This document shows positions 1,615 to 45,588 of a stretch of 64,000 nucleotides of DNA, piece by piece. Source of the stretch: an uncultured Acidobacteriota bacterium (GTDB lineage: Bacteria > Acidobacteriota > Thermoanaerobaculia > UBA5066 > Gp7-AA6); assembly GCA_963739435.1 (NCBI GenBank), contig CAVUAN010000005.1, forward strand, positions 168,128 to 232,127. Reading direction: 5' to 3'. The notes under the pieces are model-generated. The model made no database searches, was not told the origin of the DNA, and worked only from the letters and a program-made list of their open reading frames with translations. The position numbers and the translations under genes were made by a program. How positions within the stretch are numbered: position 1 is the stretch's first letter; every line of letters begins with the position of its first letter.

Positions 1615-1620
1615 GAGCGA

Positions 1621-1653
1621 GAGTCCAAAGTCCAAAGTCCAAAGTCCAAAGTC
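1621..1653. repeat. Tandem heptamer repeat (GTCCAAA x4) filling the spacer between the Mo-subunit and FAD-subunit genes; right arm of a 33-bp inverted repeat
   Basis: The plus strand reads gagtccaaagtccaaagtccaaagtccaaagtc. On the coding (minus) strand this is GACTTTG x4, lying between the TGA at 1654-1652 and the ATG at 1614. Confidence 0.8.
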
Positions 1654-4138
1654 ATCGCACTCCCCCGGCGCCGGTAACGACAGCATCGGCGGCCTTGCCG
1701 TCGCCGCCCTCTGAGGGTGTGAGAACGTGGATAGGTTCGGGATAGGGAATCTCCGGAAATCGGGTGGGTCCGTAACGCGCCGGCCTGCCCTGCGCTCTGG
1801 CCTTCAGCGCCTTCAGCACTTTTTCGGGCGTTGCCGGAACCTCATCCACGCGAACGCCCACCGCGTCGTAGATCGCGTTGACGACGGCCGGAGGAATCGG
1901 CAGCAGAGGGCCCTGTCCCACTTCCTTCGCGCCGTAGGGGCCGTTGGGATCCGGGTCCTCGACGAGGTACGTCTCGATCTCGGGCATCTCCATCGTGGTC
2001 GGGCTCTTGTACTCGAGCATCGAGGGAAACTTGTGGACGACGTTGTCGGCGACGTCGTCGCGGTAGGCCATCTCCTCCATCGTCGCTTCGCCCAGGCCCA
2101 TGTACACGGAGCCTTCGACCTGGCCGACGACGAGCGCGGGATTGATGCACTTGCCGACGTCGTGGGCGATCCAGATCTTCGGCACCCGGTAGATGCCGGT
2201 CTCGGGATCGACCGAGACCTCCACGACCGCCGCCGAATAGGAGTAGGCGGGCGACGGGCCGACACCCGCGCCGCGGTAGCGGCCGGCCGAGGGCGGCGGC
2301 GAGTACGAGCCGACCGTGCCGAGCGTGCCGAACTTCGACTCCGCCAGCACCGCGGCCTCGGCAAAGGTCATCCCCTTTTCCGGGTTTTCGACGTCGAAGA
2401 CGCGCCCGCCGGCCAGAGAAATCCGCACGCCGGGCACCTCGAGCTTCGCGCCGGCCGCGGCAACCAGCATCTCGCGGGCCCGCTCGGCCGCCTGAAGCGC
2501 GGCGTTGCCCGTCATGAGCGTGACACGCGAGGAGTAGGAACCCAGATCCACCGGCGTCAAATCCGTGTCGCCCGTCACCACGCGGATGTCGAAGGGGTCG
2601 ATCCCCAGCACTTCCGCCACGATGTAGGCCAGGACCGAGTCCGAGCCCTGTCCGATGTCGGTCGAGCCACAGAAGACCGTTACCCCGCCGCCGCGGTCCA
2701 CCTTCAACTGCACGCCCGACTGCGGCATGGAGTTCCAGTAGATCGGCAGCCCGGCGCCGCAAATGTAGGACGAGCAGGCGAGGCCGAGGCCGCGGTTGGG
2801 TGGCAGCTTGCCGCGCCGCCTCTTCCAGCCCGAGGCCGCGACGACCTTGTCGATGCAGGCGCCGAGGCCCATCGAGCCAATGCGGAGGTAGTTGGCCGTC
2901 AGCGAGTCGGGCGGCTGCAGGTGAGCCTTGCGCATCGCCGCCGGATCGAGGCCCAGGTCGCAGGCGATCTTGTCGAGCTGGGCTTCCAGAGCAAAGCGCG
3001 GCTGCGGCGTCCCGTGGCCGCGCTTGGGGCCGCAGGGCGGCTTGTTCGTGAAGACGCGGGCGCCGTCAAAGCGGTAGGCGGGCACCTCGTAGGTCACAGT
3101 TTGGAGCGCCCCCGTGTAGTACGTCGAGGCGACGCCGTAGGAACCGTAGCCGCCGCCGTCGAGCACCGTTTGCAGGTGCATCGCCGTGATCGCGCCGTCT
3201 TTTGTAACGCCCGTCTTCAAGCGCATCAGGGTCGGATGCCGGCCGCGGTGGCAGTAGAAAACCTCTTCGCGCGTCAGACAGATCTTCACGGGCCGGCCCG
3301 TCACCCGCGAGAGGTGCGCCACCACGATCTCGTGGTTGAACGGATCGGACTTGCCGCCGAAACCGCCGCCGTTGGGCGTCGCGAGGACGCGGATTCTTGC
3401 CGGCGGCATCTCCAGCACCTTGGCGAGGGCGCGGTGCACGTAATGCGGCGTCTGTGTCGAAGACCAGAGCGCGAGCTTCCCGTCGGGCCCGAAATCGGCG
3501 ACGGCCGCGTGCTGCTCGATCGGCAGGTGTGTCGAGCCCTCGTAGAAGAAGAGATCGTCGTAGGTCCGGTCGGCGCGGGCGAAGCCTTCTTCGGTCGAGC
3601 CGAACTCCATCGCCACGAGCTTGTGGAAGTTGCCGGAGTCGCCGTAGTCGTGGATCCTCGGCTCGGGCGTCGCGACGGCCTTTTCGATAGAGCCGATCGG
3701 CGTCAGGTCCTCGTAGACCACATCGATATGGCCGAGCGCAGCGACCGCGGCGTCCTCGTCCACGGCTGCGACAGCCGCCACGGGGTCGCCCACGAACCGG
3801 ACGCGGTCGAGGCACAGCGCGTGCTCGTCCTGCGAGACGGGCAGGATGCCGAAAGAAATCGGCAGGTCGCTTCCAGTTGCGACCGCCGCGACGCCCGGCA
3901 TCTTCAAGGCGCGCGACGTGTCGATCGAGACAATGCGGGCGTGCGCGCGCGTGCTGCGCAGGAGCTTGCAATGCAGCATTCGCGGCAGGACGATGTCGTC
4001 GGCGAACCGCGTCTTTCCAGTGACCTTGTCGACGGCGTCGACCTTGGGATGCGGCCGTCCCACGACGCGAGTCTGCAGGCGCGGCCCCCGACTCTGGACT
4101 TTGGGCTTCGGACTTTGGACTCCCCGCGGTTCGTTCAT
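1652..4138 (-). CDS. Molybdopterin-binding large subunit of a xanthine-dehydrogenase/aldehyde-oxidase-family enzyme (CoxL/HcrA-like)
   Basis: I trimmed track ORF 1652..4552 to the ATG at 4138, which overlaps the stop of the 2Fe-2S gene (ATGA). The N-terminus ..VVGRPHPKVDAVDKVTGKTRFADDIVLPRMLH.. and the length of about 828 aa are typical of this subunit class. An alternative GTG start lies at 4063. Confidence 0.85.
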   Translation of the reverse strand: MNEPRGVQSPKPKVQSRGPRLQTRVVGRPHPKVDAVDKVTGKTRFADDIVLPRMLHCKLLRSTRAHARIVSIDTSRALKMPGVAAVATGSDLPISFGILPVSQDEHALCLDRVRFVGDPVAAVAAVDEDAAVAALGHIDVVYEDLTPIGSIEKAVATPEPRIHDYGDSGNFHKLVAMEFGSTEEGFARADRTYDDLFFYEGSTHLPIEQHAAVADFGPDGKLALWSSTQTPHYVHRALAKVLEMPPARIRVLATPNGGGFGGKSDPFNHEIVVAHLSRVTGRPVKICLTREEVFYCHRGRHPTLMRLKTGVTKDGAITAMHLQTVLDGGGYGSYGVASTYYTGALQTVTYEVPAYRFDGARVFTNKPPCGPKRGHGTPQPRFALEAQLDKIACDLGLDPAAMRKAHLQPPDSLTANYLRIGSMGLGACIDKVVAASGWKRRRGKLPPNRGLGLACSSYICGAGLPIYWNSMPQSGVQLKVDRGGGVTVFCGSTDIGQGSDSVLAYIVAEVLGIDPFDIRVVTGDTDLTPVDLGSYSSRVTLMTGNAALQAAERAREMLVAAAGAKLEVPGVRISLAGGRVFDVENPEKGMTFAEAAVLAESKFGTLGTVGSYSPPPSAGRYRGAGVGPSPAYSYSAAVVEVSVDPETGIYRVPKIWIAHDVGKCINPALVVGQVEGSVYMGLGEATMEEMAYRDDVADNVVHKFPSMLEYKSPTTMEMPEIETYLVEDPDPNGPYGAKEVGQGPLLPIPPAVVNAIYDAVGVRVDEVPATPEKVLKALKARAQGRPARYGPTRFPEIPYPEPIHVLTPSEGGDGKAADAVVTGAGGVR
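4090..4122. repeat. Left arm of the 33-bp inverted repeat (degenerate heptamers) at the 5' end of the Mo-subunit gene
   Basis: The plus strand reads gactctggactttgggcttcggactttggactc. Its reverse complement matches 1621-1653 at 30 of 33 positions. Confidence 0.75.
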
Positions 4139-33776: not shown

Positions 33777-34492
33777 TTGCGCGCGATGACCGACCATCCG
33801 AGCGGACCGTTCTTCTCCTTCTCGAGCGGCTCGAGAAGGAGGAGGACGCTCTGCAGGATCCGGACGAGAACCAGGGCGACGAGCCGCACGGGCGCCCAGA
33901 GCAGCCGGCTGAGTCGAAACTGGCCCGACAGGAGGCCGGACCCCGGGATCACTTCCATGACGCGGGTCATCTCGTAGGCGAGCCTTGTAAAGAGCCCCCC
34001 AAACGGCGCGACGTCGACTCGGCCGAACCCCGCGTCGCCGCAGACCGAGCGAAGCCCGAAGGAGGTGAAGCGGAAGAAGTCGTGCGGGACCTGGTGCTCC
34101 GCCTGAGCCATGGGCGCCGTCAGATACAGAACACCGCCGGGCTTCAAGACCCGGTAGAGCTCCCGGACGCATTCTCTCGGCCACTCGAGGTGCTCGAGGA
34201 CCTGCGTGCAGAGAACCGCGTCCAGGCAAGCGTCCCGCAAGGGAAGCCGGTCCAGGAGCGCCAGGGAATCGAGGTTCGCGTAGTTCCAGGCCTGTTCGCC
34301 GACAGCCGAGTCCATGGCCACGTACCTGCAGTGCTTGAAGAACCTCTCGTAGGCGCACTCCCCCGCGCCCGCGTCCAGCAGCAGCGCGCCCGGAGCCACG
34401 GCCGCCGCGACGCTCTCGACGAACCGCGTGACGTGCCAGCGGCCCAGATCCGCGAGCCTCCCCGTGCGGGTGAAATCCTCGTTCAGTCTCAC
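33773..34492 (-). CDS. Class I SAM-dependent methyltransferase (type 11)
   Basis: The GTG at 34492 overlaps the upstream stop (GTGA). Family-typical segments are LLLDAGAGECAY, DAVLCTQVLEHLEWP and LKPGGVLYLTAP. Confidence 0.7.
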   Translation of the reverse strand: MRLNEDFTRTGRLADLGRWHVTRFVESVAAAVAPGALLLDAGAGECAYERFFKHCRYVAMDSAVGEQAWNYANLDSLALLDRLPLRDACLDAVLCTQVLEHLEWPRECVRELYRVLKPGGVLYLTAPMAQAEHQVPHDFFRFTSFGLRSVCGDAGFGRVDVAPFGGLFTRLAYEMTRVMEVIPGSGLLSGQFRLSRLLWAPVRLVALVLVRILQSVLLLLEPLEKEKNGPLGWSVIARK

Positions 34493-35763
34493 CGCGCCAC
34501 TGCCATCTGCGGGCGCAGGGCCTTCTTCATGAACGCCATCTGGAGAACCAGGTTGGCGATCGTGAACAGGCTCGTTGCTACGGCCACTCCGATCAGCCCG
34601 AACTCGAAGAACGCGAGAACCTTCAGCGGAACATAAAAAGTGAACGTGATGATGCCGAAGCGCGTCGGCGTGCGCGTATCGCCGGCCGCGTAGTAGGAGG
34701 CCGAGCTGATCTGGCCCAGCGCTCCGGCGATGAGCACTCCGCCCAGGCCGGCCATGAGCAGCCAGAGCTGGTTCACGTTCTGCGCGGTGACCCCGCCATG
34801 CCCGATGAGCAGGTGCAGGAGCCGATTGCCGGTAGCGAGAAAGACGGCGAACCCACCGCCGGCCAGGACCGCCATCCAGAGCAGCCGCTTGCGCACCATT
34901 CGCCGGAAGACGGGCCAGTCTCTCTGTGCCGCCTGCACGGCCAGCTTCGGGACCATCGGCGAGGTGATGGCCTTGTTCAGGACCTGGGACGCCGCTCCCC
35001 AGATCTGCTGGCCGATCACGAGCAGGGACAGGCCTCCGGCCGGAGCCATCGAAGACAGGAAGCGGTCCACGAGAGGATCGGTCTTGTAGTACGTCGTCCC
35101 GACGAGCAGAGGCCTGATCCGGCGCCAGGCCGTTCGAAACGCCGCGGCATCCCCGTGGCCAGTCCGCCATCCTCCGATGCCGGGCAGCAGGAGGGCGACC
35201 TGCAGGCCGGTCCGCAGCACGCCCGCCCACGCCGCGGCGAGAATGCCGATCCGCGGGAGGGTACCGACGAGGGCCACGAAGGCCAGCGAAGCGGCTATCA
35301 CAGGAACCGTGTCCGCCCAGAGAAAGCGGTGACGGGCGTATTGCGCGGAAGACAGCGCGGCGGCCCCCGCGGTGAACACGATCGAGAAGAGCTGGATGCG
35401 GGTCAGCCGCACGGTCAGCTCGAGAGCGGCCGGGTCGAAGCCCGGCAGAAGCCAGCGGACCCAGAGCGGGGCCGTCGCGAACATGAGGGCCGCGAACGCG
35501 GCAAAGACCCCCGTCACGCCCAGGAAGAAGCCCCAGGCCGTCCGGTTGAAGTGCTCCGGGTCTTCGTTGGCGAGCAGCGGCACGAGGACGTGCACCAGGG
35601 AGCCTCCCACGACCGCCAGGACGAGCTGGGGGACGGCCATCCCGGCGTAAAGCGCATCGGTTGCGACCCCGACGCCCAGGCTCGTGACGACATACCACTG
35701 GATCAGAAGACCCAGCAGCAGGTTCGTCGCCGCCAGCCAGCCCAGAGCGAGATTGAGCTTCAT
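34489..35763 (-). CDS. MurJ/MviN-like MOP-superfamily flippase, first gene of the glycan operon
   Basis: Intact 424-aa ORF with about 12 TM helices. The N-terminus (..LGVGVATDALYAGMAVPQLVLAVVGGSL..) resembles the MurJ family. Confidence 0.6.
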   Translation of the reverse strand: MKLNLALGWLAATNLLLGLLIQWYVVTSLGVGVATDALYAGMAVPQLVLAVVGGSLVHVLVPLLANEDPEHFNRTAWGFFLGVTGVFAAFAALMFATAPLWVRWLLPGFDPAALELTVRLTRIQLFSIVFTAGAAALSSAQYARHRFLWADTVPVIAASLAFVALVGTLPRIGILAAAWAGVLRTGLQVALLLPGIGGWRTGHGDAAAFRTAWRRIRPLLVGTTYYKTDPLVDRFLSSMAPAGGLSLLVIGQQIWGAASQVLNKAITSPMVPKLAVQAAQRDWPVFRRMVRKRLLWMAVLAGGGFAVFLATGNRLLHLLIGHGGVTAQNVNQLWLLMAGLGGVLIAGALGQISSASYYAAGDTRTPTRFGIITFTFYVPLKVLAFFEFGLIGVAVATSLFTIANLVLQMAFMKKALRPQMAVAR

Positions 35764-35781
35764 GAAGCTTGCGCCGCGCCG

Positions 35782-35810
35782 AAAGTCTCAGATTGAGGCG
35801 GAAACGTCAA
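35782..35810 (-). promoter_or_regulatory. Weak candidate promoter for the glycan operon
   Basis: The minus strand reads TTGACG, a 17-nt spacer, then GACTTT, about 18 nt before the ATG at 35763. The -10 element is poor and I saw no Shine-Dalgarno sequence. Confidence 0.2.
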
Positions 35811-35826
35811 ACCGGCCACATCGAGC

Positions 35827-35855
35827 TTGCACGGCGGTCGCGCCGGGATTACCCT
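35827..35855 (+). promoter_or_regulatory. Candidate sigma70-type promoter for fibre-like paralogue A1
   Basis: TTGCAC, a 17-nt spacer, then TACCCT. An equivalent box pair precedes paralogue A2. Confidence 0.35.
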
Positions 35856-35886
35856 AGGCGCACAAGAGATCTCGGTTCTGTTCAGG

Positions 35887-36046
35887 GGGAGTCCAACTCA
35901 ATTGTCTTGAGCCGTCCCAGCGGTTCCGGTTTTGGTCTTTGGACGGGAACCTCGGGGACGCCTCTCGACCGAAAGGAGGCGACCAGACACGGCCACACGA
36001 GCATCGCGATGTCGAAACCTGCTTTCATCAAGAATAGGAGGCTTTC
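35887..36046 (+). promoter_or_regulatory. Conserved leader of about 160 nt, copy 1 (candidate cis-regulatory RNA or operator region)
   Basis: By hand alignment, about 150 of 160 positions are identical to 40180-40337. The leader contains the palindrome CTCAA-TTGTC-TTGAG. It also contains the hairpin CGCCTC(11 nt)GAGGCG, whose 3' arm is a decoy Shine-Dalgarno sequence identical to the real GGAGGC at 36037-36042. Confidence 0.5.
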
Positions 36047-37867
36047 GTGAGTCGGAAAACAACCCGCTGGATCAGTCTCGCCCTGGGTCTGGTGTTCCTC
36101 GCAACGGTCCCCCTGCTCGCGGCCGCAGCAGCACCTCCCCTGACAAACTGGACCTCCCCGGCGACATACACCCCGCAATCGACTCGAAAGGGTCTTCATA
36201 CGGCCGGGGACCTCACGGGCCCACTGCCATTCGTTCCCATCGCACCGTGCCGGCAGTACAACACGACCAGTCCCGTGGCGCCGCTCCTGCAAGCCACGAA
36301 CCGGGCCGTGCCGCTGACGGGCGCGCCCTGCGGGATCCCGACAGATGCGGTCGCGGTTGCGGTCAACATCACGATTTTCAACATCATCGGCGCGGCTGGA
36401 AACGGCGTCTTCAAGGTCGACACCGTGTCGCCGCCACTGAACGCCTGGATCAACTATCCGCCGACGGAGGCGCAAAGGGGTAACGCCGGAGTCGTGTCCT
36501 TGAATGCCAGCGGCCAGATCATCGTTCAGGTGGCCCAGGGCGCCGGCCAGATCGACTTCGTCGTCGACACCAACGGCTACTACCCAAATACGGACTCCAC
36601 ACATCTCCTGAACGTTGGTGAAATGTTCCAGATAGCCTCGAACAACGCCGGCACCCCTGTGATCCTCGGTGTCAACACCAACACCAGCGCCAACAGCACC
36701 GGCGTCCGCGGCCTTGCCCTCAGCACGACCGGTGGCGGAATTGGGGTGTGGGGTCAGCACTTCGGCTCGGGCTGGGGCGTGTACGGCTTTTCGCCGAGCG
36801 GCATCGGGGCCTTCGGCCAATCCAATACCGGTCTTGGCGTTGAGGGACTGAGCACGGACTACAACGGTGTCTGGGCCCAAGCCACGAACTGGGATGCTCT
36901 GGCCGCGTTCGGCGGCCGGGATGGCGGATATCTCCAGGGCGCTCGCCACGGTGTCATCGGCGTCTCGACGGCGACAACCGGCATCGTCTACGGCGTCGAC
37001 GGGTCCTCAGCCAGTCCTGCCAACGGCTCCGCGGGAGTCCGAGGCTTCGATAGCAGCGGATACAGCCCGGCCGGGGCGCCAAACGGGCAGGCTGGAGTCT
37101 TTGGAACCAGTCAAACGACATTCGGTGTGGTGGGTACATCGCGTTACGCGGGTGTTTACGGGCAGCTCATGAACGGAGCGGATGCCCTGATCGCTTATGG
37201 CCTCCTCGGGACGACCTTTGGCACGGCCGCTGACACCACGACGGGTCCCTGGGGAGTCTTCTCCGCCGGTAACTTCGGAGCGACAGGCACGAAGCACTTC
37301 GTCGAGCCGCATCCGAGCGATCCCAAGAAGGTGATCCTGTACTCCTCGATTGAAGGTCGAACAGTCGATAACTTCTTCCGCGGTACGGCTCGTTTCGTCA
37401 ATCATGAAGCTGTCATCGAGGTGCCGGAAGACTTCCGCATCGTTACGGACGAGGACGGCCTGACGGTGCAGCTGACTCCGGTGGGAGGCTTTGCTTCAAT
37501 GTACATCGAGAGCCAGGACCTCAACCGGATCGTCGTGAAGTCCAACAAGGACGTGCAGTTCCACTACCTGATCCAGGGCATACGCCGGGCCTACAAGGAC
37601 TTCCTGCCAGTCCAGACAGGTTACGAGTTCATGCCGACCTCGCCGGAAGACCGGTTGCCCTTGTATCTGACAGAGGAATCCAGGCGGCGCCTGATCTCCA
37701 ACGGCACCTACAACGCCGACGGGACTGTCAATATGACGACGGCCGAGCGGGTGGGTTGGGCAAAGATTTGGGCCGACAAGGCTCAGGCAGCGGCTGAGGC
37801 GGCCAAGGCGGCCCAGGCGCGCGCGCAAGAGATGTCCGTCTCCAGGGTTTCTTCGCAACAGCAGTAG
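36047..37867 (+). CDS. Secreted fibre-like protein, paralogue A1: signal peptide, N-terminal two-Cys module, Gly-rich repeats, conserved C-terminal domain
   Basis: - GTG start after AGGAGG.
- Signal peptide MSRKTTRWISLALGLVFLATVPLLAAAAA.
- Module ..APCRQYNT..GAPCGIP..VVDTNGYY.
- Degenerate G-[VI]-x-G-x-S repeats.
- C-terminal region GTKHFVEPHPSDPKKVILYSSIEGRTVDNFFRG...NGTYNADGTVNM. Confidence 0.8.
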   Translation: MSRKTTRWISLALGLVFLATVPLLAAAAAPPLTNWTSPATYTPQSTRKGLHTAGDLTGPLPFVPIAPCRQYNTTSPVAPLLQATNRAVPLTGAPCGIPTDAVAVAVNITIFNIIGAAGNGVFKVDTVSPPLNAWINYPPTEAQRGNAGVVSLNASGQIIVQVAQGAGQIDFVVDTNGYYPNTDSTHLLNVGEMFQIASNNAGTPVILGVNTNTSANSTGVRGLALSTTGGGIGVWGQHFGSGWGVYGFSPSGIGAFGQSNTGLGVEGLSTDYNGVWAQATNWDALAAFGGRDGGYLQGARHGVIGVSTATTGIVYGVDGSSASPANGSAGVRGFDSSGYSPAGAPNGQAGVFGTSQTTFGVVGTSRYAGVYGQLMNGADALIAYGLLGTTFGTAADTTTGPWGVFSAGNFGATGTKHFVEPHPSDPKKVILYSSIEGRTVDNFFRGTARFVNHEAVIEVPEDFRIVTDEDGLTVQLTPVGGFASMYIESQDLNRIVVKSNKDVQFHYLIQGIRRAYKDFLPVQTGYEFMPTSPEDRLPLYLTEESRRRLISNGTYNADGTVNMTTAERVGWAKIWADKAQAAAEAAKAAQARAQEMSVSRVSSQQQ

Positions 37868-37889
37868 ATTCAGACCTGCGTGCGGATTC

Positions 37890-37927
37890 GAGGGCCGCGG
37901 CGCTAGGCCGCGGCCCTCTTCATTTTT
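37890..37927 (+). terminator. Rho-independent terminator after A1 (lies between convergent genes)
   Basis: A 12-bp perfect stem (GAGGGCCGCGGC / GCCGCGGCCCTC, 5-nt loop) is followed by TTCATTTTT. Confidence 0.7.
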
Positions 37928-40088
37928 GCGGCGGGTCCCCGCGCCGGTTCTTTCTCTTTTCCGCCTGCTCCTGCAGCGCTCGCTCGAGATTGTTCCGGGC
38001 CATCGTCAACCCCGGTTCCAGCCGGAGAGCCTCTCGGTACTCCTCGATGGCCGCTTCCCGGTGCCCCCCCAGGAAGAACGCGTAGCCGAGGTTGTTGTGA
38101 GCCAGGGCGAAACCCGGATTGATGCTCAGGGCCAACCGATACTCGGCCGCGGCCTCGTCGACCCGAGCTTCCTGGAGCAGGAGGCTTCCCATGTCGTTGT
38201 GTGCCTCCGCAAACGCCGGAAAGAGCTCCAGCGCCTGCCGGAGGTGATCGAGCGCATCGACTTTCTTCCCCCGACCCTGAAGCGCGAGGCTCGCGTTCCG
38301 ATGGGCCGCGGCCAGAAATCTGCGCATCTCCTCGGCGGCGGGATCGGCACTTCTTCGATCGAGAGCACGCGCGCCGTCTAAGAGATGGCGGTAGTCTGCC
38401 TCCTGCGGGGCCCGGAGGACGGTACGCTCGAGTTGATCAATGGCTGCTGCCGTCTGTCCATCCACCAGGAGGGCGATCCCGAGCCTTGCCCTGGTCTCTG
38501 CCCAATCGGGAGCCAGACGGGTGGTCGTCTGGTAGAGCCGGACTGATTCTGAGATTTCGCCTTGTTGGAACCGCGTCCTTGCGAGGTTGTTCATGGCGAC
38601 CGGATCTCCCGGCGTCAGGCGAAGGGATTCGGTGAAATGCTGCGCCGCTTCGTCGAACCGGCCCAGTAGAAAAAGAGACCGGCCGAGGTTGGTGTGAACC
38701 TCGTTGGCCTCCGGACGGAGGCGCAAGGCCTCGAGGAGATGGGGCAGAGCGTCCGCAGGCCTGCCCAGCTCGTTGTAGTAGTCGCCCAGATTGGTCCGCA
38801 CGATCGGATTGCCCTTCGTGACCTCGAGGGCGTGGAGGTAAAGGGTCTCGCTGTTCTGCCAGATGCGCGCCTGCCTGGCCGCAAACAACGCCAGAGCAGC
38901 CAGGGCAGCCGCGGCGGCCATCCGGAACGCCAGGTCTCTGTGCCGCCAGGCCAACGGGACCTCCGCAACGCCCCAGGTGATCGCGATGAACAGGCCGACA
39001 AAGGGAAGATAGGTGTAGCGATCGGCAAGTGCCTGCAGGCCCACTTGAACGAGGCCGATGACAGGAAGAAGAGTGATGACGAACCAGAACCATCCGACGA
39101 AAAGATATGGGGCGCTTCGCCGGAAGACGACGGCCGCCGCCGAAACGGCGGCGAGCAGAAGCGCGGCGCCGATGACTTTCCAGGCGGGCAGCGAAGTCCC
39201 CGGATGCGGGTAGAAGACAGCCAGGTTGGTGGGCCAGAAGAGCATGCAGATGTAGCGGACATACGCGACGAGCGCGTTCCCGACGCGAGTCCACAAAGGA
39301 AACTTTTCGAAAGTGCCGAGGGCTCCCCCGGCCCGCTGAGCCACCACGGTCACAACCGAGGAGGCCGCAGCCATCAGGAAGAGAGGAACTTTCTCGAGGA
39401 CTCGTGGCGCCGCGCCACCGCCGTATCTCGAAAGAGGCCAGTCATCGAGAAGAAGCAGCACCACCGGAAGCGAGACCAGCATTGGTTTCGACATGAGTCC
39501 GGCTGCGAACAGGCCCAACACAATCAGGTAGCGGCCGACACCGCGCCGGCGGGCCCAGGAACCATAAGCCCACATCGTCGCGAACCAGAAGACGGCGCTG
39601 AGCAGATCCTTCCTCTCCGCAACCCAGGCGACCGACTCCACGTGCGCCGGATGGACCGCAAAGAGGGCAGCGACAAAGGCACTGCGCCAGGAGTCGGTCG
39701 TCAGGCTGTGAAGCGCGCCGAAGAGAAGAAGCGTAGCGACGACATGCAGCAACAGACTGGTTGCATGATGGCCCGCAGGGTTCAATCCGAAGGCCGAGAC
39801 GTCCGCCATGTGCGAGAGCCAGGTCAGGGGATGCCAATTGGCTGCGTACACCGTCGTGAAGGCCCACCGGAGGCCCGCCCATGTCAACCCTGCGCCGACG
39901 GGGTCGTTTCGCGTCACATAAGAGTTGTCGTCAAAGTTGGTGAAGTCGCTTCGCAGGACCGGCCACAAGGTCGCTACAGAAAGAGAAACGAGAAACAGAA
40001 CAGGGAGGAGTAGTCGGACCGCCTTCGAACCGCTCGGAGAGCCAGCCCGGTCGCGATCAAGCCGATTTGCTGCACGGCGACGCGACAA
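37920..40088 (-). CDS. TMTC-like GT-C-fold glycosyltransferase with C-terminal TPR array
   Basis: The N-terminal half is polytopic and contains the family-typical ..SDFTNFDDNSYVTRNDPV.. and ..ANWHPLTWLSHM.. The C-terminal ~330 aa are tandem TPR repeats. The start is TTG at 40088. Confidence 0.75.
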   Translation of the reverse strand: MSRRRAANRLDRDRAGSPSGSKAVRLLLPVLFLVSLSVATLWPVLRSDFTNFDDNSYVTRNDPVGAGLTWAGLRWAFTTVYAANWHPLTWLSHMADVSAFGLNPAGHHATSLLLHVVATLLLFGALHSLTTDSWRSAFVAALFAVHPAHVESVAWVAERKDLLSAVFWFATMWAYGSWARRRGVGRYLIVLGLFAAGLMSKPMLVSLPVVLLLLDDWPLSRYGGGAAPRVLEKVPLFLMAAASSVVTVVAQRAGGALGTFEKFPLWTRVGNALVAYVRYICMLFWPTNLAVFYPHPGTSLPAWKVIGAALLLAAVSAAAVVFRRSAPYLFVGWFWFVITLLPVIGLVQVGLQALADRYTYLPFVGLFIAITWGVAEVPLAWRHRDLAFRMAAAAALAALALFAARQARIWQNSETLYLHALEVTKGNPIVRTNLGDYYNELGRPADALPHLLEALRLRPEANEVHTNLGRSLFLLGRFDEAAQHFTESLRLTPGDPVAMNNLARTRFQQGEISESVRLYQTTTRLAPDWAETRARLGIALLVDGQTAAAIDQLERTVLRAPQEADYRHLLDGARALDRRSADPAAEEMRRFLAAAHRNASLALQGRGKKVDALDHLRQALELFPAFAEAHNDMGSLLLQEARVDEAAAEYRLALSINPGFALAHNNLGYAFFLGGHREAAIEEYREALRLEPGLTMARNNLERALQEQAEKRKNRRGDPPQK

Positions 40089-40142
40089 GATCCGTCGAGT
40101 TTAACCGAGCCCGCCCCGCTCGCCGAACTGGCCTCGTCGGGG

Positions 40143-40171
40143 TTGCGCTGCTGGCGCGCCGGGGTTAGTTT
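40143..40171 (+). promoter_or_regulatory. Candidate sigma70-type promoter for paralogue A2
   Basis: TTGCGC, a 17-nt spacer, then TAGTTT. The conserved leader begins about 9 nt downstream. Confidence 0.35.
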
Positions 40172-40179
40172 TGTCCAGC

Positions 40180-40337
40180 GGGAGTCCAACTCAATTGTCT
40201 TGAGCCGTCCCAGCGGTTCTGGTTTGGCCTTTCGACGGGAACCTCGGGGACGCCTCTCGACCGAAAGGAGGCGACCTGACACGAGACACGAGCATTGCGA
40301 CGTCGAAACCTGCTTTCATCAAGAATAGGAGGCTTTC
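40180..40337 (+). promoter_or_regulatory. Conserved leader of about 160 nt, copy 2
   Basis: See copy 1. This copy has the same palindrome, the same CGCCTC/GAGGCG hairpin and the same GGAGGC Shine-Dalgarno sequence. Confidence 0.5.
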
Positions 40338-41990
40338 GTGAGTCGGAAAACAACCCGATGGATCAGTCTCGCCCTGGGTCTGGCGTTCCTCGCAACGGTC
40401 CCTCTGCTCGCCGGCGCAGGAGAACCTCCCCTGACAAACTGGACCTCCCCGGCGAAATACACCCTCCCCCCATCGGCTCGAAAGGGGCTTCATACGGCAG
40501 GGGACATCGCCGGCCCGGAGCCATTCATTCCGATCGCACCGTGCCGGCAGTACAACTCGCTTAGCGCGACGCCGCTCCTGCAAGCCACGAACCGGGCCGT
40601 GACGCTGACGGGTGCGCCCTGCGGGATCCCGGCGACTGCGAAAGCGGTTGCGGTCAACATTACGATTTTCAACATCAACGGCGCGGCCGGAAACGGCGTT
40701 CTCAAGGTGGACACGGTGTCGCCGCCGGTGACCGCCTGGATCAACTACCCGCCGACGGAGCAACAAAGGGGCAACGCCGGAGTCGTGTCCTTGAATGTCA
40801 GCGGCCAGATCTGGGTCCAGGTCGCCCAGGGCGCCGGCCAGATCGACTTCGTCGTCGACACGAATGGTTACTTCGGCAGCAGCCCCGCCACCAGCCAGGA
40901 CTGGTTCGAGGTCGACAACAACAGCTCTACCTTTACGATCTTCGGAAATAACTCCTCGACGACCTGCAGTCAAGATTGCGGTGTCGTGGGGCAGACGGCC
41001 AGCGGGTGGGCTGTTTACGGACTCAGCTTCAACGACGTCGGCGTTTACGGATCCAGTTTCGGGAGCGGCATCGGAGTGGCCGGAGTCTGGGGGTCCAGCA
41101 CCGATGCCATCGGCACCTACGGGCACAGCACCAACACCAACGGCATGTGGGCCGACAGCACGACCTTCGACGCTTTGGCCGCGTTCGGCGGCCGCGACGG
41201 GACCTTCAGCCAGGGCGCCCGGAATGGCGTCGTCGGAGTGTCCACCGGCACCACATTGCCGGTCTATGGTGCGATTGGTCAAGGGATGAGCTCTAGCTCC
41301 AGCGCCGCCGGAATCTTCGGCACGACCAATCAAGCTGTCGCCAACGCGGGATACTTCACCAATACCGGCGCCGGGACCATCACATACATCGGTACTCAAA
41401 TCCTCGGAACCAATTACGACATCTTCGGGAGCGGTAGGATCCAGGGCAATTCCCTCAACATCATCGGCGCGCCCAAGAACTTCGTCGCGCCTCACCCTCT
41501 GGACCCCTCCAAAGAGATCGTGTACGCCTCCGTCGAGGCCCCGACCGTGGACGTCTACTTCCGCGGCACCGGGACGCTCTCCAACGGTTACGCGCACATC
41601 GAGGTGCCCGACCATTTCCGCTTCACGGCTCGTGAAGGGACCTACATGACCACGCTGACCCCGGTCGGGCGGCCGATCGGCTTGAGCGTCGAGTCGGAAG
41701 GGCCGGAGGGGATCGTCGTGCGCGGGAGCGGGAACGCCAGCTTTCACTACGTCGTGTACGCCGAGCGCGCCGAGATCGTCGGATACGAGCCGGTCCAGAA
41801 GAACGTGACCTTCACACCCGAGGCCATGGAAAAGATTCAGTTGCTGAACGCGTTGCCGGAGTCGACGAAAGCGCTCCTCGTCAAGAACGGGACCCTCAAC
41901 CCCGACGGCTCCTACAACCTGGAGACGGCTGGCGCCATGGGATGGACCGTCCCGAAGCCGATCGCCACCGACGCAGCGACTCGAAAGTAG
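40338..41990 (+). CDS. Secreted fibre-like protein, paralogue A2
   Basis: Same architecture as A1, with a more diverged C-terminal domain (APKNFVAPHPLDPSKEIVYASVEAPTVDVYFRG...). Confidence 0.8.
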   Translation: MSRKTTRWISLALGLAFLATVPLLAGAGEPPLTNWTSPAKYTLPPSARKGLHTAGDIAGPEPFIPIAPCRQYNSLSATPLLQATNRAVTLTGAPCGIPATAKAVAVNITIFNINGAAGNGVLKVDTVSPPVTAWINYPPTEQQRGNAGVVSLNVSGQIWVQVAQGAGQIDFVVDTNGYFGSSPATSQDWFEVDNNSSTFTIFGNNSSTTCSQDCGVVGQTASGWAVYGLSFNDVGVYGSSFGSGIGVAGVWGSSTDAIGTYGHSTNTNGMWADSTTFDALAAFGGRDGTFSQGARNGVVGVSTGTTLPVYGAIGQGMSSSSSAAGIFGTTNQAVANAGYFTNTGAGTITYIGTQILGTNYDIFGSGRIQGNSLNIIGAPKNFVAPHPLDPSKEIVYASVEAPTVDVYFRGTGTLSNGYAHIEVPDHFRFTAREGTYMTTLTPVGRPIGLSVESEGPEGIVVRGSGNASFHYVVYAERAEIVGYEPVQKNVTFTPEAMEKIQLLNALPESTKALLVKNGTLNPDGSYNLETAGAMGWTVPKPIATDAATRK

Positions 41991-42015: not shown

Positions 42016-42041
42016 CTGCCGCGGCGATGTTGCCGCGGCAG
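42016..42041 (+). terminator. Hairpin (possible attenuating terminator) between A2 and A3
   Basis: A 10-bp stem (CTGCCGCGGC / GCCGCGGCAG, 6-nt loop) is followed by a T-poor tail (AGTCCTTTCTT). Confidence 0.45.
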
Positions 42042-42072
42042 AGTCCTTTCTTATCCCGAGAGGAGGCCTTTC

Positions 42073-43758: not shown

Positions 43759-43818
43759 TCGGCGGCAGATTTCTCATCATGACGGAGAGTGCTCTTCCAT
43801 CAGGAACAGGAGGCCATC

Positions 43819-45588
43819 GTGAGTTGGAAAAGAGCCCGATGGATCGGTCTCGTCCCGGGTCTTGTGTTGCTCGCAACGGTTCCCCCGCTCGCCGCCGCGG
43901 ACATACCCCTCAAGAACTGGACCGCCCCAGCGACATACACGCCGCCGGCCGCCCGAAAGGGGCTCCACACGGCAGGGGACATCGCGGGTCCGCTGCCATA
44001 CATCCCGATCGCACCGTGCCGCCAATACAGCTCGCTCAGCGCGACTCCGCTCCTGCAAGCCGTGAACCGGCCCGTGCCGCTGACGGGCGCGCCCTGCGGG
44101 ATCCCGGCAACAGCCGTCGCGGTGGCGGTCAACATCACGATTTTCAATATCGTCGGCGCGGCCGGAAACGGCGTCTTCAAGGTCGACACCGTCTCACCGC
44201 CCCTGACCGCCTGGATCAACTACCCGCCGACGGAGGCCCAACGGGGTAACGCTGGAGTCGTGTCCCTGGACGTCAGCGGAGAGATCATCGTTCAGGTCGC
44301 CCAGGGCGCCGGCCAGGTCGACTTCGTCGTTGACACGAACGGCTACTACGGCATCACTCCCGCCACTGTCTCGAACTTCTTCAAGATCGAGAACAACAGC
44401 CCCGGCTTGTCGATCCAGGCAATCAATGACTCGACAACCTGTTTCGGTCCTTGCGGTATCGAAGGGTTCGTCGAAGGCGGTAACGCCATTTCCGGTTTCG
44501 CCAACGCATCGACCGGCGCCACGTACGGGGTCGAAGGTCACACCCAGAGCGTGAGCGGCAACGCGGCCGGAGTCTTTGGAAGCGCCGGCAACACGAACTT
44601 CCAGGCCGGCTTCGGCGCCGGGCCGGCAGGCGTGCGGGGACAGAACACGTTCAACGGGGTCCTCGGCCTCGCTCAGGATCGAGCCGTCGTTGGCATTCTG
44701 TTCGACGGCACAGGCCCGCCCGCAAACGATATCGCCGAGGGTTGGCTGGGAAAAAGCGGCGCCTCCTCCTCGATCTTCTATGGCGTCGAGGGGGTCCTGG
44801 TCGGGGCCGCATCCAACGGTGCTGCCGGGGTGGAGGGAACCGACGTCGGAGGCATCGTGGGGTCGCCAGACAACTCCTTCCAGGCTGGCGTACGCGGCGA
44901 CTCGGCGGGTAACTTCGGAGTGCTGGGGATCAGCGGCTTCGTTGGCGCTCGCGGTCGCCACTACAGCGGCGTCACCTTCAGCACTCTCGATACCGAGGGA
45001 AGCCTTGCTTGCTCAGCGACAATCGCCGTCTGCGGCCTGGGCAATCTGAGCATCTCGGGATCGAAGTCCTTCGTCGAGCCACACCCAACCGACGCGACCC
45101 GAGTCATAAAGTACGTTTCTCTGGAAGGACCCGAGGCTGGCACGTATTTCCGGGGCACCGCCCGGGTGCGCGGCGGAAAAGCGGTCATCACTGTCCCCGA
45201 GAGCTTTCGGCTCGTCACGTCCAACGACGGGCTGACGGTGCAGCTCACGCCCGTAGGCAGCCTGGCCAGGATGGCCGTCGAGCAACAGGACCTGCAGCAG
45301 GTCGTGGTCATTTCCGACCATGACGTCACGTTCCACTACACCGTCCAGGGAATCCGGCGCGGATTCGAGGATTTTGATGCGATGCCCGAGGATTCGACTT
45401 TCCAACCCGAAGGACCCAACGGCAGGATGCCCGCCGCGCTCAGCGCGGTTCAGAAGGAACATCTCGTCGCAAACGGAACCTACAACGCCGACGGTACCGT
45501 GAACATGCAGACCGCGGAGGCGAGGGGGTGGGCCGCCGCCTGGCGCGACCGCGAGGCCAGGGCGCGTGCGGCGCAAAACGCGAAGTAG
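43819..45588 (+). CDS. Secreted fibre-like protein, paralogue A4
   Basis: I trimmed track ORF 43789..45588 to the GTG at 43819, preceded by CAGGAGGC, by analogy with A1-A3 (VSWKRARWIGLVPGLVLLATVPPLAAA). Same architecture as A1. Confidence 0.75.
   Translation: MSWKRARWIGLVPGLVLLATVPPLAAADIPLKNWTAPATYTPPAARKGLHTAGDIAGPLPYIPIAPCRQYSSLSATPLLQAVNRPVPLTGAPCGIPATAVAVAVNITIFNIVGAAGNGVFKVDTVSPPLTAWINYPPTEAQRGNAGVVSLDVSGEIIVQVAQGAGQVDFVVDTNGYYGITPATVSNFFKIENNSPGLSIQAINDSTTCFGPCGIEGFVEGGNAISGFANASTGATYGVEGHTQSVSGNAAGVFGSAGNTNFQAGFGAGPAGVRGQNTFNGVLGLAQDRAVVGILFDGTGPPANDIAEGWLGKSGASSSIFYGVEGVLVGAASNGAAGVEGTDVGGIVGSPDNSFQAGVRGDSAGNFGVLGISGFVGARGRHYSGVTFSTLDTEGSLACSATIAVCGLGNLSISGSKSFVEPHPTDATRVIKYVSLEGPEAGTYFRGTARVRGGKAVITVPESFRLVTSNDGLTVQLTPVGSLARMAVEQQDLQQVVVISDHDVTFHYTVQGIRRGFEDFDAMPEDSTFQPEGPNGRMPAALSAVQKEHLVANGTYNADGTVNMQTAEARGWAAAWRDREARARAAQNAK

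What the first reader, a model, noticed from the sequence alone, without database searches (positions are those of the whole stretch)
35887..36046. Conserved leader of about 160 nt in front of A1 and A2, with an anti-SD / decoy-SD / SD arrangement and a palindrome
Regions 35887-36046 and 40180-40337 are about 94% identical by hand alignment (about 8 substitutions and 2 single-nt gaps). This is at least as conserved as the coding sequence that follows. Both follow similar promoter-like boxes (TTGCAC-17-TACCCT and TTGCGC-17-TAGTTT).

Internal features present in both copies:
- a perfect palindrome CTCAA-TTGTC-TTGAG near the predicted 5' end, which looks like an operator or a small hairpin;
- UUUGG[UA]CUUUGGAC-like repeats resembling the GGACUUU heptamers at 1621-1653;
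- the hairpin CGCCUC-(11 nt)-GAGGCG, in which the 3' arm is part of AAAGGAGGCG.

The real ribosome-binding site about 60 nt downstream is the same hexamer, GGAGGC. The CGCCUC element could therefore pair either with the decoy (RBS free) or with the true SD (RBS blocked). That is the architecture of a translational riboregulator or thermosensor.

A3 and A4 have only short spacers with their own GGAGGC.
Basis: partly seen in the sequence, partly recalled or inferred. Interest (0 to 1): 0.6.

Follow-up and report, generated by a model that had tools for sequence, protein, structure and literature searches.

The report
Conserved mRNA leader with decoy ribosome-site
The repeated 160-base block is a real untranslated mRNA leader of two secreted-protein genes in an uncultured Acidobacteriota bacterium; its core, a long hairpin followed by a ribosome-binding sequence with no gene behind it, is kept in another genus and probably stabilises or pre-loads the message rather than acting as the proposed on/off switch.

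Summary
Observation confirmed. 35887-36046 and 40180-40337 differ by 8 substitutions and 2 one-base gaps.

The two copies are so alike because the 5' ~670 bp (leader, signal peptide, N-terminal module) was recently duplicated or converted between paralogues A1 and A2. Relatives show the same mosaic.

The leader is older than that event. Syntenic, murJ-adjacent loci in five genomes of another genus keep three things:
- a ~21-bp imperfect hairpin (35904-35969), with five base pairs changed on both sides;
- directly after it, a start-less GRAAGGAGG (35971-35979), a 9-nt perfect complement of this genome's 16S 3' end.

A covariance model built only from the other genus ranks A1 first and A2 third in the window.

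The anti-SD/decoy/SD toggle is not supported:
- CGCCUC belongs to the 3' arm of the conserved hairpin;
- it never pairs with the true SD in the predicted ensemble;
- its hairpin with the decoy is absent in orthologues;
- the real RBS is no more structured than average.

The palindrome and the UUUGG repeats are not conserved.

Most likely function (inferred, not shown): a STAB-SD-like 5' stabiliser or ribosome-parking module. No Rfam match. No RNA data were available. This scan has noted similar start-less-SD leaders on other DNA.

The parts
35827..35855 (+). Promoter of A1: -35 TTGCAC (35827-35832), 17-nt spacer, -10 TACCCT (35850-35855). Predicted start of transcription is about 35862.
   Evidence: A weak match to the sigma-70 consensus (6/12). 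However, position, TTGC.. and TA.T.T hexamers and the 17-nt spacing are conserved at syntenic murJ-adjacent loci of G011, G017, G033, G127 (x2) and G162/L060. The start site is inferred, not mapped.
35862..35903 (+). Variable 5' segment of the leader. It contains the CTCAA/TTGAG palindrome (35897-35911). A2 lacks 23 nt of this segment.
   Evidence: This part differs between A1 and A2 (23-nt indel), between the two G127 copies, and among genera. The palindrome is absent in orthologues.
35904..35969 (+). Conserved long imperfect hairpin: outer helix GUC/GAC + GAG/CUC + CGUCCC/GGGACG, inner helix GGUUCC/GGAACC, variable apical loop 35928-35945.
   Evidence: Inverted repeat found; local dG -26.7 kcal/mol. 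The same architecture is the MFE fold of six of eight homologues folded singly. The model R3, built without A1/A2, aligns it with 19 of 20 pairs formed. Five pairs show changes on both sides. Simulation P = 1.5e-4.
35971..35979 (+). Start-less extended Shine-Dalgarno-like box GAAAGGAGG (the 'decoy SD').
   Evidence: It is a perfect 9-nt complement of the 16S rRNA 3' end ...CACCUCCUUUCUA found in this genome. No ATG/GTG/TTG lies 4-12 nt downstream in A1, A2 or orthologues. It is conserved as GGAAGGAGG in G011/G017/G033/G127 and as GGAAGGGGG in G162.
35980..36012 (+). Variable spacer between the SD-like box and the RBS region.
   Evidence: It holds 6 of the 10 A1/A2 differences. It is not alignable across genera.
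36013..36049 (+). Translation-initiation region: CGAAACCU / AGG..UUUCG local hairpin, U/C-rich tract, SD AGGAGG (36036-36041), GTG start 36047.
   Evidence: Identical in A1 and A2. The true SD pairs with 36018-36022 at p 0.86-0.97. dG is -10.8 kcal/mol, typical for this genome. The motif 'U-rich + GGAGG + nnCUUCG + start' is shared by many family members.
40143..40171 (+). Promoter of A2: TTGCGC-17-TAGTTT. Predicted start of transcription is about 40177.
   Evidence: Homologous to the A1 promoter and to those of orthologues.
40197..40271 (+). A2 copy of the hairpin (40197-40261) and the start-less GAAAGGAGG (40263-40271).
   Evidence: R3 hit at 40197-40276, 19.2 bits, third-best in the window. 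The single stem difference from A1 (C to U at the position equivalent to 35927) keeps pairing as G-U.
36047..36545 (+). 5' coding part of A1 (signal peptide and N-terminal module) that belongs to the same duplicated or converted tract as the leader.
   Evidence: 88.6% nucleotide identity to A2, against about 50% further downstream.

Best explanation
The block is the transcribed 5' untranslated leader of the murJ-adjacent gene for an exported, glycine-rich fibre-like protein.

Why the copies are alike. A1 and A2 carry near-identical copies because the 5' ~670 bp was recently duplicated or gene-converted between the paralogues. That stretch covers the leader from 35883, the signal peptide and the N-terminal module.

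What the leader contains. It is an older, selected RNA element. From a conserved sigma-70-type promoter the mRNA starts near 35862 (40177 in A2). After a variable segment it folds into a ~21-bp imperfect hairpin (35904-35969). Two bases after the hairpin it shows an extended Shine-Dalgarno sequence, GAAAGGAGG, that has no start codon. The real ribosome-binding site lies about 60 nt further on.

Proposed mechanism (inferred). The hairpin plus start-less SD works as a 5' stabiliser or ribosome-parking module of the STAB-SD type. A 30S subunit bound to the orphan SD, backed by the hairpin, would shield the message from 5'-end-dependent decay (an RNase J-like enzyme is encoded). It may also raise the local ribosome supply for the downstream RBS. 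Either effect would support high expression of a surface protein.

Shown versus inferred. Shown: duplication tract, conserved promoter, conserved hairpin with compensatory changes, conserved orphan SD complementary to the 16S 3' end. Inferred: transcription start, ribosome binding, effect on stability or translation.
For: 1. Duplication tract. Identity is 93-98% from 35883 to about 36090, 80-90% to about 36545, then about 45%. Four-fold sites are 0.18 inside the tract and 0.65 beyond it. The same mosaic occurs in three tandem paralogues of metagenome locus L079 and in the two G127 copies.

2. Orthology. MurJ (60% identity) lies divergently upstream of the homologous gene in G011, G017, G033, G127 and G162, as in the window.

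3. Promoter. TTGC[ACG][ACG]-17-TA[ACG][CT][CT]T occurs at the same place in A1, A2 and six orthologous copies; G011 fits as TTGCAC-17-TTTAAT.

4. Hairpin.
- A model built only from the other genus (R3) ranks A1 first (22.0 bits, E 0.006) and A2 third (19.2 bits, E 0.025) in 128 kb searched.
- In its alignment, 150 of 165 cells are canonical.
- 5 of 21 pairs changed on both sides: GC/AU, CG/GC, GC/UG, GC/AU, CG/UA.
- 0 of 2000 column shuffles reach the observed paired fraction. Sliding the partner columns drops pairing to 36-56%.
- Nine random substitutions in G011's stems keep at least 19 of 20 pairs in only 1.5e-4 of trials.
- G-U pairs lie on the sense strand, which points to RNA rather than a DNA palindrome.

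5. A1/A2 differences avoid the stems, the SD-like box and the RBS. Only 1 of 10 falls there, and it is wobble-compatible.

6. Orphan SD.
- It is a 9-nt perfect complement of the 16S 3' end.
- It is followed by no start codon.
- SD-like boxes of at least 7 nt occur in 7 of 41 non-redundant leaders of the gene family, against 1.6 +/- 1.2 in shuffles. Five of the seven lie at -63 to -75.

7. An RNase J-like ORF is present (379 bits, E 2e-113).

8. The STAB-SD mechanism is described in PMC4113751.
Against: - The 5' end, any processing and the abundance of the mRNA are therefore unknown.
- The SD-like box is predicted to be mostly base-paired. Unpaired probability is 0.08-0.37 in A1/A2, where it pairs with CGCCUC, and 0.13-0.39 in orthologues, where it pairs with a downstream CCUUC. 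This does not fit a freely accessible STAB-SD.
- The covariation rests on few lineages. Four of the five both-sided changes separate G000 from the other genus, so they amount to one branch. The alignment was also fitted by the model.
- Genome-wide the R3 score of A1/A2 is not significant; a chance hit of 23.8 bits exists in a coding region.
- The element was found in only two genera among 105 genomes of the family.
- The RNase J match is below NCBIfam's curated cut-off.
- STAB-SD has been shown only in Firmicutes.
Confidence: 0.45

Rival explanations
1. One reading: a translational riboregulator or thermosensor. The anti-SD CGCCUC pairs either with the decoy GAGGCG, leaving the RBS free, or with the true SD, blocking the RBS.
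For: - The CGCCUC/GAGGCG hairpin exists in both copies (dG -13.8).
- GCCUC can form 5 bp with the true GAGGC.
- In every lineage the SD-like box has a CCUC/CCUUC partner nearby: upstream in G000, downstream in the other genus. Some interplay of SD-like and anti-SD-like segments is therefore recurrent.
Against: - The pairing probability of CGCCUC with the true SD is below 0.03. The true SD is held by a local partner, 36018-36022.
- RBS structure and SD accessibility are average for the genome.
- CGCCUC is the 3' arm of the conserved long hairpin. The decoy hairpin is not conserved in orthologues.
- There is no Rfam thermometer or riboswitch match.
Confidence: 0.08
2. The near identity is only a by-product of a recent partial duplication or gene conversion. 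Beyond the ordinary promoter and RBS, the leader has no function of its own.
For: - There are only two copies in the genome.
- The tract continues into the CDS.
- The same 5' homogenisation is seen in L079 and G127.
- Other homogenised tracts were noted nearby in this window (earlier notes, unchecked).
- Whole-leader folding z-score is about 0.
Against: - The hairpin and the orphan SD are retained at syntenic loci of another genus, where MurJ is only 60% and the A protein about 45% identical. Compensatory changes are present.
- The leader diverged three times less than four-fold sites of the same tract.
- A1/A2 differences, and G127a/b differences, fall in the loop and spacer, not in the stems.
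Confidence: 0.1
3. The hairpin plus purine box is a recognition or processing site for a protein. Candidates are an RNase III cleavage site that creates a stable 5' end, or an autoregulatory or translational repressor binding site as in some surface-layer gene leaders. Under this reading it is not a ribosome-parking site.
For: - A ~21-bp helix with conserved internal mismatches is in the size range of RNase III substrates (established knowledge).
- The conserved internal loops and the invariant segments UCCC/GGGA and GAG/CUC suggest sequence-specific contacts.
Against: - No candidate protein was identified.
- CsrA, the commonest GGA-binding regulator, was not found in the 87%-complete genome.
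- The 9-nt perfect complementarity to the 16S 3' end is better explained by ribosome binding.
Confidence: 0.15
4. Part of the block (35900-35935) is itself a promoter, homologous to the TTGCCG-17-TAGGAT promoter found upstream of tandem paralogues in L079/L058/L066/L069. Under this reading the hairpin's 5' arm is DNA, not RNA.
For: - An 11-mer, GCCGTCCCAGC, and colinear AATT..CTTG are shared.
- Smith-Waterman against shuffles gives p 0.006-0.04.
Against: - A profile of eight such promoters/leaders (R2) does not hit A1/A2 even with filters off.
- The would-be -10 is TTTTGG/TTTGGC and carries an indel between A1 and A2.
- An upstream promoter is conserved with true orthologues.
- Compensatory changes and sense-strand G-U pairs indicate an RNA helix.
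Confidence: 0.05

Closest known systems
STAB-SD 5' mRNA stabiliser of Bacillus thuringiensis cry3A. Sources: Agaisse & Lereclus 1996; Mathy et al. 2007; summarised in PMC4113751, read.
   Same: - A Shine-Dalgarno sequence inside a long 5' UTR that does not direct initiation.
- Extended complementarity to the 16S 3' end. The box here is GAAAGGAGG, which from my memory is the same nonamer as STAB-SD.
- It lies upstream of a gene for a very abundant exported or accumulated protein.
- A 5'-3' exonuclease homologue (RNase J-like) is encoded.
   Different: - The phylum is Acidobacteriota, not Firmicutes.
- The box is immediately preceded by a conserved ~21-bp hairpin.
- The box is predicted to be largely paired.
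- Its position relative to the mature 5' end is unknown.
- Stabilisation has not been shown.
5' stem-loop stabilisers: E. coli ompA leader; B. subtilis aprE leader (stem-loop plus ribosome binding); SP82/ermC 5' stabilisers. Cited from my own knowledge of the literature.
   Same: Structured 5' UTR of a highly expressed envelope or secreted protein gene. A hairpin combined with a ribosome-binding sequence protects the message.
   Different: In those cases the hairpin sits at the very 5' end. Here it lies about 20-45 nt downstream of the predicted start (about 42 nt in A1, about 20 nt in A2), so processing would be needed.
SD-sequestering RNA thermometers (ROSE, fourU) and translational riboswitches.
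   Same: A leader with SD-like and anti-SD-like segments. The true SD sits in a local hairpin.
   Different: - No Rfam match.
- RBS structure is not above the genome average.
- The proposed alternative pairing is thermodynamically negligible and not conserved.
Concerted evolution of 5' regions in surface-protein gene families, for example the conserved 5' UTR plus signal peptide of Mycoplasma vsp/vlp families. Cited from my own knowledge.
   Same: Paralogues share near-identical upstream region, signal peptide and N-terminal part, while the rest of the protein is highly divergent.
   Different: Copies are in direct orientation. There are no recombination sites or homopolymer tracts, and no evidence of phase variation.

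Membership tests
STAB-SD-type 5' stabiliser | SD-like sequence in the 5' UTR with extended complementarity to the 16S rRNA 3' end | tested here: met
   GAAAGGAGG at 35971-35979 and 40263-40271. The 16S 3' end ...GGAUCACCUCCUUUCUA was read from G000 contig C4, giving a 9-nt perfect duplex.
STAB-SD-type 5' stabiliser | Does not direct translation initiation (no start codon at a functional distance) | tested here: met
   No ATG/GTG/TTG lies 4-12 nt downstream in A1, A2, G011, G017, G033, G127 or G162.
STAB-SD-type 5' stabiliser | Lies close to the 5' end of the mature, stable transcript | not testable with these tools
The predicted primary start is about 110 nt (A1) or about 86 nt (A2) upstream of the box.
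STAB-SD-type 5' stabiliser | Box accessible for 30S binding | tested here: inconclusive
   Predicted unpaired probability is 0.08-0.39. The partners differ between lineages, and predictions for GC-rich 200-nt leaders are unreliable.
STAB-SD-type 5' stabiliser | A 5'-3' exoribonuclease (RNase J) whose progress is blocked | tested here: inconclusive
   TIGR00649 match of 378.9 bits, E 2e-113, positions 1-469 of 546, in a 747-aa ORF at G000:C22. This is below the 400-bit cut-off.
RNA thermometer / SD-sequestering riboregulator | True SD or start codon sequestered more strongly than in ordinary genes | tested here: not met
   dG of -35..+6 is -10.8 kcal/mol, the 57th percentile of 600 genes. SD unpaired probability is 0.22, the 32nd percentile of 400 genes.
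RNA thermometer / SD-sequestering riboregulator | Conserved alternative pairing of an anti-SD with decoy and true SD | tested here: not met
   CGCCUC pairs with the true SD at p < 0.03. The CGCCUC:GAGGCG hairpin is absent in orthologues.
Any Rfam 15 family | Score at or above the gathering threshold | tested here: not met
   There are 0 hits in the window and in six orthologous loci. The best sub-threshold hits in 35700-36200 have E 2-4.
CsrA-regulated leader | CsrA encoded in the genome | tested here: not met
   PF02599 was not found in G000, which is 87% complete, so absence is not proven. The controls gave hits.
Intrinsic terminator / attenuator | GC-rich hairpin followed by a U tract | tested here: not met
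   The hairpin is followed by CCGAAAGGAGG. The only terminator-like call, at 35909-35926, is a weak sub-stem, at a rate expected from shuffles.
Sigma-70-type promoter | -35 and -10 hexamers with 16-18 nt spacing, conserved in orthologues | tested here: met
   TTGCAC-17-TACCCT and TTGCGC-17-TAGTTT match the consensus at only 6/12. They align with TTGCAC/TTGCGC/TTGCCA/TTGCGA-17-TAATCT/TAGTCT at six orthologous copies.

The most novel reading that the evidence does not exclude
The hairpin plus start-less extended SD is one instance of a general, undescribed leader design by which many uncultured phyla boost mRNAs of secreted or surface proteins. A 30S subunit would be parked on the 5' UTR at a fixed distance (about 60-75 nt) ahead of the real RBS. 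Within this gene family the orphan SD recurs in 7 of 41 unrelated-looking leaders, five of them at -63 to -75. Notes of this scan report similar leaders in several other phyla.
Probability: 0.25. Interest if true: 0.65.

Novelty: new variant of a known kind. Interest (0 to 1): 0.45.

Why it matters
If the module works as proposed, ribosome-dependent 5' protection of mRNA (STAB-SD) would extend to Acidobacteriota; it has so far been shown only in Firmicutes. It would also link that mechanism to a defined, covarying hairpin.

The module would give a compact candidate expression-enhancing leader for a phylum with almost no genetic tools.

It also shows how promoter, leader and N-terminal module travel together as one converted unit in a rapidly diversifying surface-protein family.

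For annotation, it warns that a perfect SD in a long leader need not mark a gene or a riboswitch.

Tried and rejected
- BLASTN of the 164-nt leader against 60 relatives gave only 25-35-nt chance hits inside coding regions.
- A covariance model of the two copies alone (R1) found nothing. It was run against 150 genomes of the order (the weak hits are not next to family genes) and against 27 metagenome loci.
- A protein-pattern scan of genome contigs found no close relative. The nearest full-length homologue is 57% identical.
- Homology of 35900-35935 to the TTGCCG-17-TAGGAT promoter of the 'MKRFF' clade looked attractive. Its shuffle support is only p 0.006-0.04, and it is rejected by a profile search.
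- uORF idea. A1 has a 13-codon ORF, 36008-36049, whose stop overlaps the GTG start. In A2 the ATG is ACG, and no start follows the orphan SD anywhere.
- CsrA two-site leader: CsrA was not found.
- Extra R3 hits in G154, G013, G104 and G000:C6 lie in coding regions or after unrelated genes and are chance.
- The MAFFT alignment of A1/A2 with orthologues mis-registers the 3' arm. Pair counts were therefore made on the model-guided alignment, using the eight sense-strand rows only.
- The scan's simple promoter consensus search finds nothing in 35600-40500.

Full report
**Observation**

Identity begins abruptly at 35883/40176. Between 35887-36046 and 40180-40337 there are 8 substitutions and 2 single-base gaps. 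The genome is a 3.5-Mb, 87%-complete MAG of Acidobacteriota, class Thermoanaerobaculia by the names of its homologues. It holds only these two copies.

Both copies lie in divergent intergenic regions:
- murJ (34489-35763, minus strand; Pfam MurJ) | A1;
- a TPR protein gene (37920-40088, minus strand) | A2.

The single-base indels exclude a shared reading frame.

**Why the two copies are so alike**

High identity does not stop at the start codon. It runs at 80-98% to about 36545, covering the signal peptide and the N-terminal ~170-residue module. It then falls to about 45%.
- Four-fold sites differ at 0.18 inside the tract and at 0.65 (saturated) beyond it.
- So a ~670-bp 5' segment was recently duplicated or converted between A1 and A2.
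- The same mosaic is seen among three tandem paralogues of a syntenic metagenome contig, L079: upstream region plus first ~600 nt are 87-99% identical, then identity collapses.
- It is also seen between two copies in genome G127.
- Within the tract the leader is the best-kept part: 8/158 substitutions against 17/95 at four-fold sites, p = 0.002.

**Is it more than a duplication?**

First attempts failed.
- There is no Rfam match.
- Whole-leader folding energy is average (z -0.2).
- BLASTN and a model of the two copies found nothing in relatives.
- A tempting similarity to a clear TTGCCG-17-TAGGAT promoter of another clade was rejected by a profile search.

The decisive material came from reading the upstream regions of all family members fetched from relatives.
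- In five genomes of another genus of the same family (G011, G017, G033, G127, G162; G162 is identical to metagenome locus L060) the homologous gene also lies divergently next to murJ. MurJ is 60% identical and the A protein about 45%.
- Their intergenic regions align with ours in four blocks:
  - an AACGTCAAAC box;
  - a long inverted repeat;
  - directly after it, GGAAGGAGG (GAAAGGAGG in G000).

**The hairpin**

- Folded singly, six of the eight homologues give the same long interrupted hairpin as their minimum-energy structure.
- I built a covariance model from the six sequences of the other genus only (A7, R3).
- With filters off it ranks A1 (35904-35984, 22.0 bits, E 0.006) first and A2 (40197-40276, 19.2 bits, E 0.025) third in the 64-kb window.
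- Genome-wide these scores would not be significant. Here, however, the hits fall exactly in the two orthologous upstream regions.

Pair counts on the model-guided alignment, eight sense-strand rows:
- 150 of 165 cells are canonical;
- five of 21 pairs changed on both sides (8-75 GC/AU, 10-73 CG/GC, 11-72 GC/UG, 20-63 GC/AU, 23-60 CG/UA).

Controls:
- Shuffling the 3' letters within columns never reaches the observed paired fraction (0 of 2000).
- Sliding the partners by 1-3 columns drops pairing to 36-56%.
- Placing the nine A1-versus-G011 stem differences at random keeps at least 19 of 20 pairs in 1.5e-4 of trials.

Other points:
- G-U pairs lie on the sense strand, so the constraint is on RNA, consistent with the upstream promoter.
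- The A1/A2 differences fall in the apical loop (35930, 35936, 35941) and the downstream spacer (six).
- The one stem change (35927, C to U) keeps a G-U pair.
- In G127 the two copies likewise differ only in the loop.

Caveats:
- Four of the five compensatory pairs separate G000 from the other genus, which is one branch.
- The alignment was fitted by the model.
- Only two genera carry the element among 105 family genomes searched.
- Further R3 hits there are chance hits in coding regions.

**The 'decoy' SD**

- GAAAGGAGG (35971-35979; 40263-40271) is a perfect 9-nt complement of the 16S 3' end read from this genome...CACCUCCUUUCUA.
- It has no start codon behind it in any lineage.
- The nonamer G[AG]AAGGAGG occurs 86 times in 7 Mb (both strands), so its presence in a given 160-nt leader has a chance of about 0.002.
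- Across the whole gene family, SD-like boxes of at least 7 nt occur in the -200..-30 region of 7 of 41 non-redundant leaders, against 1.6 +/- 1.2 in dinucleotide shuffles. Five of them sit at -63 to -75.

- CGCCUC (35959-35964) can pair with GAGGCG of the decoy (p 0.4-0.84). Its pairing with the true SD has p < 0.03.
- The true SD is held by 36018-36022 in a local hairpin.
- That hairpin is entirely ordinary for this GC-rich genome: 57th percentile of dG and 32nd percentile of SD accessibility.
- CGCCUC is part of the 3' arm of the conserved long hairpin.
- In the other genus there is no equivalent decoy hairpin. There the SD-like box is predicted to pair with a downstream CCUUC instead.
- The CTCAA/TTGAG palindrome and the UUUGG repeats have no counterpart in orthologues. 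The repeat is already broken in A2.
- The toggle is therefore not supported. A looser idea does survive: SD-like and CU-rich segments recur side by side in these leaders.

**Most likely function**

The module is a structured element followed by a start-less, extended SD in the long leader of a gene for an exported, probably abundant protein. The closest known system is STAB-SD of B. thuringiensis cry3A. There, a 30S subunit bound to an orphan SD blocks RNase J1 (PMC4113751).
- G000 encodes an RNase J-like protein (379 bits, just below the curated cut-off).
- G000 has no detectable CsrA.
- I therefore propose a 5' stabiliser or ribosome-parking module.
- This is inference. The predicted pairing of the box argues against simple accessibility.
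- Rivals: a protein or RNase III recognition site, a pure duplication by-product, an internal promoter, or the original toggle.

**Comparison and novelty**

There is no Rfam family for it. It is a new, narrowly distributed leader motif. It resembles STAB-SD in its key feature but differs in phylum and in the coupled, covarying hairpin. This scan's notebook holds several AI notes of similar start-less-SD leaders before secreted-protein genes in other phyla. I reached the reading before seeing them, and they are not independent evidence.

**Verdict**

- The element is a real conserved structured leader whose near-identity in A1 and A2 is due to a recent 5' duplication or conversion.
- Its function is inferred, not shown.

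Noticed in passing
window 1613-1655: A heptanucleotide repeat, AGTCCAA, runs about 4.5 times (1621-1653). It begins 8 nt after an ATG at 1613. A 7-nt unit changes the reading frame when a copy is gained or lost, so this is a candidate slipped-strand phase-variation tract.
   Followed up: no
window 36008-36049: A1 has a 13-codon upstream ORF (ATG 36008; MSKPAFIKNRRLS) whose TGA overlaps the GTG start in a GTGA arrangement. In A2 the ATG is ACG, so the ORF is not conserved.
   Followed up: yes
window 43789-43821: A4 probably starts at the GTG at 43819, which is preceded by CAGGAGGCCATC. The ORF-list start at 43789 is less likely. The N-terminus then aligns with A1-A3 (VSWKRARWIGL...).
   Followed up: partly
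L079:1040-6700 (JGI metagenome contig Ga0683564_0003380): A syntenic locus: murJ, then three tandem paralogues. Each paralogue is preceded by a GGGCCGCGGC...GCCGCGGCCC-TTTT terminator, a well-conserved TTGCCG-17-TAGGAT promoter and a ~65-nt leader without an orphan SD. The same promoter/leader occurs in L058, L063, L066, L069 and L078.
   Followed up: partly
L134 (G127:C233) about 900-1210, minus strand: A third, decayed copy lies between two intact paralogues. It has the hairpin, whose inner helix has a completely different sequence (UUCAGAC/GUCUGAA), followed by GGAAAGGAGG, an RBS and a signal-peptide fragment that breaks off after about 30 codons (frameshift). It is a pseudogene remnant that still keeps the leader fold.
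   Followed up: partly
window 37890-37918 and 42020-42050: A1 ends with a strong terminator, GAGGGCCGCGGC..GCCGCGGCCCTC + T-run. It is of the same sequence type as terminators after homologous genes in L078, L079 and G127. The A2-A3 spacer keeps a weaker version, CTGCCGCGGC..GCCGCGGCAG. A3 and A4 have no room for a promoter and are probably co-transcribed with A2.
   Followed up: no
G006 (L102, L088), L051, L055, L081: Leaders of other subfamilies of the same gene family, in other genera, also carry a start-less AAGGAGG 63-75 nt before the start codon, plus a shared 'CAATGTCG(A/G)TTTTT..GGAGGATCTT' initiation region. Several have ATG/GTG/TTG directly abutting the box, at spacing 0, which is too close for initiation.
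   Followed up: partly
G000:C22:13746-15143 (minus strand): A 747-aa ORF matches RNase J (TIGR00649) over positions 1-469 at 379 bits, just under the curated cut-off, and has a long extra C-terminal part.
   Followed up: no
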